A stretch of DNA of 64,000 nt from Octopus vulgaris (taxonomy: Eukaryota). Shown here piece after piece: positions 2,113-11,793 of this stretch. Numbering within the stretch: the first letter of the stretch is position 1; each line of letters begins with the position of its first letter. Location: contig OX597814.1 of the NCBI GenBank assembly GCA_951406725.2, forward strand, positions 17,546,001 through 17,610,000, written 5' to 3'. The notes under the pieces are model-generated. The model ran no database searches, was not told where the DNA came from, and saw nothing but the letters and a program-made list of their open reading frames with translations. The position numbers were made by a program, and so were the translations under genes.

Positions 2113-5407
<3,295 letters not shown>

Positions 5408-9771: not shown

Positions 9772-9907
9772 GATACTGTCTCGCAGTCGTAGCTCACAAC
9801 AGAAATACAATGGTGGGCCGGGCGAATCTTCGTGAACATCCAAATGATATGAAATACGAACATGTGCCAAATAAAATGTGGGCCCTAAATGTACATATAT
9901 ATGAACG

Positions 9908-9979
9908 TATAGATTGGCGCAGTGGAAGCGTGCTGGGCCCATAACCCGGAGGTCCGTAGATCGAAACTACGCCCTGCTA
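9908..9979 (+). tRNA. Initiator tRNA-Met(CAT), probable pseudogene (acceptor stem broken)
   Basis: TGGCGCAGTGGAAGCGTGCTGGGCCCATAACCCGGAGGTCCGTAGATCGAAACTACGCCCTGCTA: CAT anticodon at 9940-9942, GGG/CCC anticodon stem and initiator T-loop GATCGAAA. The 5' end reads TATAGAT instead of AGCAGAG. Confidence 0.88.
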
Positions 9980-9999
9980 AGTGGGCTGTTTGTTCGTCG

Positions 10000-10410
10000 T
10001 AGGCGTAGGAGTGGCTGTGTGGTAAGTATCTTGCTTACCAGCCACATGATTCCGTGTTCATTCCACTGCGTGGCACCTTGGGCAAGTGTCTTCTACTATA
10101 GCCTCGGGCCGACCAAAGCCTTGTGAGTGGATTTGGTAGACGGAAACTGAAAGAAGCCCGTCGTATATATGTATATATATGTGTGTGTATGTTTGTGTGT
10201 CTGTGTTTGTCCCCCTAGCATTGCTTGACAACTGATGCTGGTGTGTTTACGTCGCCGTCACTTGGCGGTTCGGCAAGGGAAACCGATGGAATGAGTGCTG
10301 GGCTTGCAAGGAATAGGTCATGGGGTCGAGTTGCTCGATTAAAGGCGGTGCTCCAGCATGGCCGCAGTCAAATGACTGAAACAAGTAAAAGAGTAACAGA
10401 GTAAAAAGAG
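10000..10410 (+). mobile_element. SINE family B (tRNA-derived, CORE-like segment), with A>G cluster
   Basis: Head AGGCGTAGGAGTGGCTGTGTGGTAAG, GCGTGGCACCTTGGGCAAGTG, central (TA/TG)n and (AGTAAAAG)n tail. Confidence 0.92.
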
Positions 10411-10482
10411 TATAGAGTGGCGCAGTGGAAGCGTGCTGGGTCCATAACCCAGAGGTCCGTAGATCGAAACTACGCCCTGCTA
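10411..10482 (+). tRNA. Initiator tRNA-Met(CAT), second tandem copy, probable pseudogene
   Basis: TATAGAGTGGCGCAGTGGAAGCGTGCTGGGTCCATAACCCAGAGGTCCGTAGATCGAAACTACGCCCTGCTA, 503 bp downstream of the first copy. Confidence 0.88.
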
Positions 10483-10502
10483 AGTGGGCTGTTTGTTAGT
10501 CG

Positions 10503-10910
10503 TAGGCGTAGGAGTGACTGTGTGGTAAGTAGCTTGCTTACCAGCCACATGACTCCGTGTTCATTCCACTGCTTGGCACCTTGGACAAGTGTCTTCTACT
10601 ATAGCCTCGGGCCGACCAAAGCCTTGTGAGTGGATTTGGTAGACGGAAACTGAAAGAAGCCCGTCGTATATATGTATATATATGTATGTTTGTGTGTCTG
10701 TGTTTGTCCCCCCAACATCGCTTGCCAACCGATGCTGGTGTGTTTACGTCTCTGTAACTTAGTGGTTCGGCAAAAAAAAACCCGATAGAATAAGTACTAG
10801 GCTTACAAAGAATAAGTCCTGGGGTCGATTTGCTCGACTAAAGGCGGTGCTCCAGCATGGCCACAGTCAAATGACTGAAACAAGTGAAAGAAGTAAAGAG
10901 AGTAAAAGAG
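10503..10910 (+). mobile_element. SINE family B, second unit of the tandem
   Basis: Same architecture as 10000-10410. Confidence 0.92.
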
Positions 10911-11793
10911 TATGTGCTTTATACAGGAACTGAAATGCATGTTTATAGACAGATCTAACCCCCTTGGCAATAGTGCATTGTATGTGGTACAGATCCACTA
11001 CACCGAAACCACTACCAACGCATTTGTAACCACGCTGCACTTGTATCTGAGTGTTTGAAGAAGCACACAATATATATAGCAAGACATATTCTAAACTGAG
11101 CTTCTATTTTACGGACACACGCACGCACACACATACACACACATATATATGTATATAAATATATTCAACAGATTTTTGTTTTAGCAAAAACTGTGCTTTC
11201 GCCAATTCAAGGAGCTCGTCAGAGACTAACAGTACTTTGAAACTGTTAACGAAGCGAAAATATTTCTGGCCATTTATATGCAGAAACTAATTCGCATTCA
11301 AAATAGCCAAAATTAAGAAGGTATAAATGAGAAATGAGTCCTCCGGGGTTGATTATGTCAAAGGATCGGTGAAAGAAAGGAAGTAAACGAAGCACATTCG
11401 ACAAAATATTATGGGAAGACAAACATACATAAAAACGACAGTCAGTCGTTGTAAAAACATTATACTACTTAAATATACATGCACACTCAATAATTTGATT
11501 AAAAAAAATAAACATGAAAAAAACGAAGGAAATGAACGATAAATTATTAGCCAATTAAAATAACTTAAATAGTAATCTTTTAATCTCGACATTGTTGCAG
11601 CTTCAAAGTTGCGGCCATGCTGGGGAACAATAATGCATAATAATAATAATTTGCAAGATTGAATAAAAACATGACTAAATTCCCTATCTTTTGACAGTGT
11701 TAAGGTACTATGGATACATGTACTGGGACCTGTTTAAACATTTGCTTGCATACAATCTTTCCCTCTCTTTCTTTCTTTCTTTCTTTCTCTTTT

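What the first reader, a model, noticed from the sequence alone, without database searches (positions are those of the whole stretch)
10261..10320. ADAR-type A>G hyper-editing fixed in a genomic SINE copy
Seen: compared with family B copies at 17.0, 18.2, 35.3, 54.7 and 61.7 kb (CTTAGCGGTTCGGCAAAAGAGACCGATAGAATAAGTACTGGGCTTACAAAGAATAAG), this copy reads CTTGGCGGTTCGGCAAGGGAAACCGATGGAATGAGTGCTGGGCTTGCAAGGAATAGG. That is nine sense-strand A>G changes in 53 bp (10264, 10277, 10278, 10288, 10293, 10297, 10306, 10310, 10316) against one G>A. Every changed A has T or A on its 5' side, As preceded by G are untouched, and none restores a CpG. Established: this matches the ADAR neighbour preference (5' U>A>C>G), inosine is copied as G by reverse transcriptase, and coleoids edit RNA heavily. 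Inference: an A-to-I hyper-edited SINE RNA was retrotransposed in the germline, so RNA editing became heritable DNA sequence.
Basis: partly seen in the sequence, partly recalled or inferred. Interest (0 to 1): 0.85.

Follow-up and report, generated by a model that had tools for sequence, protein, structure and literature searches.

The report
RNA edits fossilised in SINE DNA
This SINE copy, and about ten unrelated copies elsewhere in the same genome, carry dense A-to-G clusters on the element's own sense strand, likely because ADAR-edited RNA was reverse-transcribed back into the germline, which would make a passing RNA edit heritable.

Summary
Observation confirmed: nine sense-strand A>G changes in 53 bp (9 of 22 As; background 1.4% per A; p about 7e-12), none after G. 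The haplotype is not a subfamily: 81,756 copies match the A-form 25-mer exactly, while the G-rich form is nearly unique. Genome-wide pattern searches found ten more independent copies with 6-14 A>G on different subfamily backgrounds, both chromosome strands and overlapping but different site sets. A four-site A>G pattern is fully met at 8 independent loci (chance 0.003); the T>C control at none. The strongest T>C hit is a fold-back SINE pair whose two arms both read A>G on one strand, as an edited hairpin would. Double changes are at background (17 vs 16), so the event is all-or-none and rare, roughly 1 in 10,000 copies as a lower bound. The window copy is a chimera: only its 3' half, from another subfamily, is altered, beside a roughly 290-bp duplication that looks like the insertion target. 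Best reading: ADAR hyper-edited SINE RNA retrotransposed in the germline (0.85). Not shown: the bases in raw DNA reads, editing in RNA, and 3'-G preference. Main rival: polymerase-eta-type WA>WG errors. No report of this was found in the searched library.

The parts
10264..10316 (+). Cluster of nine A>G changes on the SINE sense strand
10203..10409 (+). 3' half and (AAAGAGT)-type tail of SINE unit 1; subfamily 'A' alleles; the inferred cDNA-derived, edited part
   Evidence: differs from unit 2 at 8 of 9 subfamily-diagnostic columns and 24 of 184 positions
10164..10202 (+). (TA)n/(TG)n middle of the SINE; simplest place for the switch between target-derived and cDNA-derived sequence (bounds about 10065-10216)
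   Evidence: position inferred
10000..10163 (+). 5' half of SINE unit 1, no A>G cluster; shares rare variants with unit 2
   Evidence: four variants shared by both units are in 1 of 136, 3 of 137, 2 of 137 and 4 of 137 other copies
9907..10200 (+). First copy of the roughly 290-bp local duplication (tRNA-like piece, 21-nt spacer, SINE 5' half), read as a long target duplication
   Evidence: 9 differences in 273 positions to the second copy; spacer junction occurs only here in the genome
9915..9971 (+). tRNA-like piece with CAT anticodon (initiator-Met-like, name recalled), 5' end missing
   Evidence: Rfam RF00005 28.5 bits, just below gathering 29
10411..10482 (+). Second copy of the tRNA-like piece
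   Evidence: Rfam RF00005 34.1 bits
10503..10913 (+). SINE unit 2, subfamily 'B' 3' half, unedited; the inferred pre-existing element
   Evidence: A at all nine sites; 1 A>G in its 3' half

Best explanation
The 3' half of this SINE copy carries nine clustered sense-strand A>G changes that were likely written by ADAR into a double-stranded SINE RNA and then likely fixed in germline DNA when a LINE reverse transcriptase copied that RNA. Steps: (1) shown: the cluster, its strand, its 5' neighbour bias and its recurrence in unrelated copies; (2) established: ADAR hyper-edits repeat dsRNA with G depleted 5' of the site (PMC4365171), inosine is read as G in reverse transcription (PMC5224506), and repeat-directed editing is ubiquitous across squid tissues (PMC9068888); (3) inferred: the duplex was an inverted SINE pair or sense/antisense hybrid, since the SINE's own fold is unremarkable; (4) inferred: priming at the SINE 3' tail explains why clusters are on the SINE sense strand; (5) inferred for this locus (about 0.6): the cDNA was primed at a TATA site at 9907 and its far end joined the homologous resident SINE about 290 bp downstream, duplicating the stretch between; tandem duplication followed by cDNA-mediated conversion of one 3' half (about 0.3) gives the same result. 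The copy is most likely a neutral by-product, with no function proposed.
For: 9 of 22 As, p about 7e-12. A-form 25-mer 81,756 copies; triple-G 17-mer 3 matches, 2 in SINEs. Four-site A>G pattern: 13 matches (7 forward, 6 reverse), 9 with all four G, 8 independent, chance 0.003; T>C control 1 match, none with four. Six-site patterns: 14 A>G loci vs 8 T>C (5 independent); five or more of six sites 4 vs 0. 11 independent copies with 6-14 A>G among 39 loci examined, 3 duplicates dropped, on at least two subfamily backgrounds, with other divergence from 0 to 8%. At sites outside the search patterns, 10 copies: A>G 22 of 237, T>C 3 of 313; 5' T 7/27, A 12/77, C 2/47, G 1/84, p 7e-5. Fold-back locus L106-L109: 11 T>C in the antisense arm and 7-12 A>G in the sense arm, i.e. 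A>G on one strand. Duplicated loci L115/L116 (99% alike over 2.6 kb) share the cluster. Inverted neighbour 62 bp from L102 is unedited, and five clustered copies (L129, L131, L134, L137, L139) have no inverted family copy within 5 kb.
Against: No raw-read confirmation and no RNA data. 3'-G preference, part of the ADAR motif, appears in the pooled sites (44/87) but not outside the search patterns (AAG 3/19, AAT 3/20). The WA context is also the polymerase-eta motif (recalled). Copies were found with patterns taken from this copy's sites and kept at 6 or more A>G, so site frequencies and the out-of-pattern rate are partly circular. Six-site contrast 14 vs 5 has p 0.064. Double changes show no excess (17 vs 16). 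L104 has four T>C and no fold-back seen. In the fold-back, confinement of changes to the paired stretch is not significant (11/32 vs 0/7, p 0.16). L117 shares all nine sites with this copy, closer than independent editing needs. The dsRNA source and partner LINE were not identified; ADAR genes were not searched in this genome.
Confidence: 0.85

Rival explanations
1. Error-prone DNA synthesis (polymerase-eta type, WA>WG) during second-strand synthesis on the SINE cDNA made strand-coordinated A>G clusters with no RNA editing.
For: All nine sites are WA; this route also predicts sense-strand bias and new insertions only; 3'-G preference is not seen outside the patterns. Motif recalled, not from a call.
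Against: Density: 9 of 15 WA sites in 53 bp, 91 of 206 in the pooled central region, far above recalled polymerase-eta error rates of a few percent; almost no other change types (L006, L112 have none); the best T>C hit is a perfect dsRNA substrate.
Confidence: 0.07
2. Assembly or polishing artefact (for example edited RNA reads or a systematic base-call error).
For: Raw reads were not checked.
Against: Clusters follow SINE orientation on both chromosome strands; separately assembled duplicates share them (L115/L116, L106-L109); polishing with RNA would give T>C clusters as often; doubles are at background.
Confidence: 0.03
3. In-place rewriting: an edited transcript of this locus templated repair of its own gene, or ADAR acted on DNA in an RNA:DNA hybrid.
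For: Proposed in print as a general route (PMC10209271, passages); inverted family copies lie 1.6-2.7 kb downstream of this locus.
Against: Predicts no SINE-strand bias; local inverted partners are unedited and several clustered copies have none within 5 kb; the altered 3' half here belongs to a different subfamily from its duplicate.
Confidence: 0.03
4. One G-rich source element (minor subfamily) or gene conversion from one donor spread the haplotype.
For: L117 shares all nine changes.
Against: L117 differs at diagnostic columns on both sides and has two more A>G; the other copies carry different subsets on different backgrounds. Even if true for this pair, the first cluster still needs a cause.
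Confidence: 0.02

Closest known systems
APOBEC-edited LTR retrotransposons fixed in vertebrate genomes (PMC4866542, passages read; Carmi et al. 2011 seen only as a reference)
   Same: Strand-biased clusters of one substitution with an enzyme motif, made during retrotransposition and inherited
   Different: There G>A by cytidine deamination of cDNA in LTR elements, absent from 19 invertebrate genomes; that screen took LTRs only and filtered for G-to-A. Here A>G, a non-LTR SINE, an invertebrate, and the RNA is the inferred substrate
[quoted passage not shown]
   Same: ADAR-type A>G, up to about half of As, in an inverted-repeat region, passed through reverse transcription
   Different: Infectious retroviruses in somatic or cultured cells, not germline SINE insertions recurring through a family's history
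ADAR hyper-editing of Alu and other repeats in RNA (PMC4365171; squid PMC9068888; passages read)
   Same: Clustered A>G, G depleted 5' of the site, repeat dsRNA
   Different: Seen as RNA-versus-DNA mismatch; here the change stands in the genome assembly
Excess A/G polymorphism at edited sites (PMC7186786, PMC10209271; passages read)
   Same: RNA-edited A mirrored by genomic G
   Different: Single sites explained by selection or a proposed in-place mechanism; here doubles are at background and only rare dense clusters occur
Octopus tRNA-derived SINEs such as OR1, a CORE-SINE (named in PMC4824008)
   Same: tRNA-like head, central domain resembling CORE by recall, repeat tail, very high copy number
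   Different: No reference sequence was available; family name not tested

Membership tests
ADAR hyper-editing signature | Dense cluster of A>G on one strand, other changes at background | tested here: met
ADAR hyper-editing signature | G depleted 5' of edited A | tested here: met
   0/74 pooled; 1/84 vs 19/104 for T or A outside patterns, p 7e-5
ADAR hyper-editing signature | G enriched 3' of edited A | tested here: inconclusive
   44/87 pooled but AAG 3/19 vs AAT 3/20 outside patterns
ADAR hyper-editing signature | Long dsRNA substrate | tested here: inconclusive
   SINE alone folds no better than shuffles (z -0.76, -0.42); present in the fold-back L106; source RNA of this copy unknown
ADAR hyper-editing signature | Same sites edited in RNA, dependent on ADAR | not testable with these tools
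   no RNA run of the organism held the stretch
Retrotransposed (TPRT) SINE copy | Intact 3' tail joined to the family's usual target, new relative to flanks | tested here: met
   tail joins TATA, the commonest 3' junction in the sample (25 copies); 3' half foreign to its duplicate
Retrotransposed (TPRT) SINE copy | Target-site duplication | tested here: inconclusive
   a roughly 290-bp duplication fits but is atypical; no empty site available
Genuine germline DNA | G alleles in raw DNA reads of several individuals | not tested
   read check could not be run; indirect support from duplicated loci
APOBEC DNA editing | Sense-strand G>A clusters | tested here: not met
   one G>A against nine A>G
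OR1 / CORE-SINE | Alignment to the family consensus and CORE domain | not testable with these tools
   no SINE library on hand; resemblance recalled only

The most novel reading that the evidence does not exclude
ADAR acts on SINE RNA in this animal's germline and its edits have been retrotransposed repeatedly over the family's life, leaving a datable DNA record of germline RNA editing. The last 45 nt look spared (0 of 72 WA sites vs 91 of 206), which would mean editing of the LINE-recognised tail blocks copying, so ADAR restricts SINEs through its catalytic activity; and edited copies that became sources could have seeded subfamily-defining TA>TG alleles and the SINE's (TA)n-to-(TG)n middle.
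Probability: 0.3. Interest if true: 0.9.

Novelty: new variant of a known kind. Interest (0 to 1): 0.74.

Why it matters
It would be direct sequence evidence that A-to-I RNA editing can be written into heritable DNA through non-LTR retrotransposition, a route proposed but, in the papers found here, shown only for viruses and for APOBEC on LTR elements. It gives a way to read germline ADAR activity and its neighbour preference from assemblies alone, to ask whether catalytic editing restricts SINEs (for human L1 it was reported not to be needed, PMC5224506), and a cheap screen for any genome, Alu included. The effect on this genome is small: about 11-15 copies found among roughly 200,000, a lower bound from one 70-nt segment.

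Tried and rejected
Raw-read or contig confirmation: no result, so the bases rest on the assembly. Run listing: three large runs from two coded organisms hold 0.62-0.77 of the sampled words against about 0.44 for others, but nothing was laid, so it is not used as evidence; the six RNA rows are small-share metagenomes. Earlier findings were not available. Pervasive low-level editing: rejected, doubles 17 vs 16 and 0 of 325 T-preceded As changed in background copies. SINE's own hairpin as substrate: not supported (two hot sites lie in or beside a loop). Tail-edited three-site pattern: 0 matches, but the comparable central pattern has only 2 SINE matches, so weak. 5'-half three-site pattern: 1 match, poorly chosen sites, uninformative; three clustered copies do have 4-6 A>G in the 5' half. 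More 5' truncation in clustered copies: not significant (6/4 vs 78/19, p 0.22). Unequal crossover between two SINEs as the cause of the tandem pair: rejected, no SINE tail upstream of 9907. Unit 1 as retrocopy of unit 2: rejected, 3' halves are different subfamilies. Partner LINE not identified. A search for published long target duplications by TPRT returned nothing apt; that model is recalled from L1 cell-culture work.

Full report
Setting. The window is G000:C1:17546001-17610000 of a 2.8-Gb genome in 227 contigs. The repeat is a SINE of about 410 bp: tRNA-like head, (TA)n/(TG)n middle, 3' half and a short repeat tail. 81,756 copies match a 25-mer of it exactly; 16 3' halves in 200 kb of evenly spaced stretches suggest about 200,000 copies.

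Observation. All nine follow T or A. In 42 background copies (window, evenly spaced stretches, bystanders) A>G is 29 of 2129 and T>C 30 of 1672, no copy having more than 2 A>G; 9 of 22 As gives p about 7e-12. The best other match to the G-rich stretch among 40 scored of 1748 candidates is 90%, and a triple-G 17-mer has 3 matches in the genome, one not in a SINE. So the haplotype is no subfamily consensus.

Genome-wide tests. Double changes are at background: A>G 17, T>C 16. Dense changes are not. A six-site A>G pattern with up to 3 mismatches found 14 loci, the T>C pattern 8, of which 4 are one duplicated family; with five or more of six sites the score is 4 to 0; 14 vs 5 alone has p 0.064. 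A four-site A>G pattern with 1 mismatch found 13 loci, 7 forward and 6 reverse, 9 with all four G (8 independent, chance 0.003); its control found 1, with three; one of the control's four sites was in a context ADAR would disfavour on the other strand. Of 39 loci examined, 14 had 6 or more A>G in the 3' half; dropping 3 duplicates leaves 11 including this copy. They have different flanks, different subfamily alleles, overlapping but different site sets, and 0-8% other divergence, so the event recurred over time. Pooled 5' neighbours: T 48/87, A 43/119, C 2/33, G 0/74. Because the patterns came from this copy, I recounted on the other 10 copies at sites outside the patterns: A>G 22 of 237, T>C 3 of 313; T 7/27, A 12/77, C 2/47, G 1/84, p 7e-5; a 3'-G preference was not seen there. 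The threshold of six still makes the rate partly circular. L117 shares all nine sites with this copy plus two more, on a different background.

The control hit. L106-L109 (four duplicated copies on C7) hold two SINE 3' halves head to head. The antisense arm has 11 T>C, the sense arm 7-12 A>G, so on one strand both arms read A>G and that strand ends in the sense tail; it folds into a long duplex. That is what a copied, edited hairpin RNA would look like, though confinement to the paired part is not significant (p 0.16). L104, with four T>C, is unexplained.

Artefact and in-place rivals. Clusters follow the SINE, not the chromosome strand. L115 and L116, 99% alike over 2.6 kb and 304 kb apart, share one cluster. 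In 10-kb views the inverted copy 62 bp from L102 is unedited, five clustered copies have no inverted family copy, and this window's neighbours are unedited. The raw-read check could not be run, so an artefact is unlikely but not excluded.

This locus. 9907-10409 and 10410-10913 form a tandem pair, each with a tRNA-like piece, a 21-nt spacer found nowhere else and a SINE. The 5' parts differ at 9 of 273 positions and share variants seen in 1-4 of about 137 other copies; the 3' halves differ at 8 of 9 diagnostic columns. This 5'/3' allele combination also occurs in 7 of 100 full-length copies, so the rare shared variants carry the argument. The simplest history is one insertion: a foreign, edited 3' half primed at the TATA at 9907, the family's commonest junction, and resolved against the resident SINE, duplicating about 290 bp. 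Duplication followed by cDNA conversion also fits. Four other changes in 182 positions (2.2%) match the age of the duplication (about 1.6% per copy). This explains why the 5' half has no cluster.

Mechanism. Shown: cluster, strand, context, recurrence. Established: ADAR motif (PMC4365171, passages), inosine read as G (PMC5224506, passages), ubiquitous repeat editing in squid. Inferred: the duplex (the SINE alone folds no better than shuffles), the enzyme, tail priming by a LINE. The main rival is polymerase-eta-type WA>WG error in second-strand synthesis (recalled); the density of about half of WA sites and the hairpin case argue against it. The last 45 nt have 0 of 72 WA sites changed against 91 of 206 centrally and 3 of 19 at a similar distance upstream (p 0.008); this hints at selection for an unedited tail but is subject to how the copies were found, and a direct pattern test was weak.

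Known and new. APOBEC-edited LTR elements are the closest genomic precedent; that screen covered LTRs, required G-to-A and found nothing in invertebrates (PMC4866542, passages). ADAR-type hypermutation through reverse transcription is known in avian retroviruses (PMC12925331, passages). RNA-to-DNA replacement at edited sites is hypothesised (PMC10209271) or ascribed to selection (PMC7186786). PMC2873906, PMC5974252 and PMC4824008 were read as passages only. Eight searches on the topic (listings seen) showed no report of ADAR-edited SINE copies fixed in a genome. The library lacks most subscription papers, Carmi et al. 2011 was not read, and no supplements were opened; those of PMC4866542 on other mismatch types may bear on novelty.

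Verdict. Real, more than chance, recurrent, best explained as germline retrotransposition of ADAR-hyper-edited SINE RNA (0.85). New variant of a known kind; rare; interest 0.74.

Noticed in passing
L106:1425-1812 (G000:C7 about 97.14-97.21 Mb, four copies L106-L109): Fold-back pair of SINE 3' halves with both arms A>G on one strand; looks like a genomic copy of an edited hairpin RNA, later duplicated
   Followed up: partly
L119:1341-1874 (G000:C4 about 143.70 Mb): A clustered copy (12 A>G) flanked by a perfect 50-nt inverted repeat of non-SINE DNA, an odd insertion structure
   Followed up: no
SINE middle, e.g. window 10164-10202: Sense strand holds TA and TG but almost no CA (TG 1098, CA 74 in 100 copies); inherited from source elements, possibly old editing of self-pairing (UA)n; untested
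   Followed up: partly
window 10300 and 10096 area: Subfamily-diagnostic A/G alleles lie in TAG and TAC contexts, the favoured contexts of the clusters; direction of change unknown
   Followed up: no
L132:4800-5678 (G000:C11 about 82.27 Mb): Full-length young clustered copy with a 5-nt flanking repeat, followed 60 bp later by an unedited copy in the same orientation, like the window pair but without a duplication
   Followed up: partly
window 2319-3983 (-): Reverse transcriptase ORF fragment (Pfam RVT_1, zf-RVT) ending in a long (TAA)n tract near 1950-2110; non-LTR element, R4/Dong-like by recall
   Followed up: partly
window 9915-9971 and 10411-10482: 5'-clipped tRNA-like piece with CAT anticodon directly upstream of the SINE, unique to this locus; unit 1 has one more A>G at 9948 relative to unit 2
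   Followed up: partly
L104 (G000:C5 about 66.74 Mb): Copy with four T>C changes in TA-type contexts and no fold-back seen; chance or antisense editing
   Followed up: no
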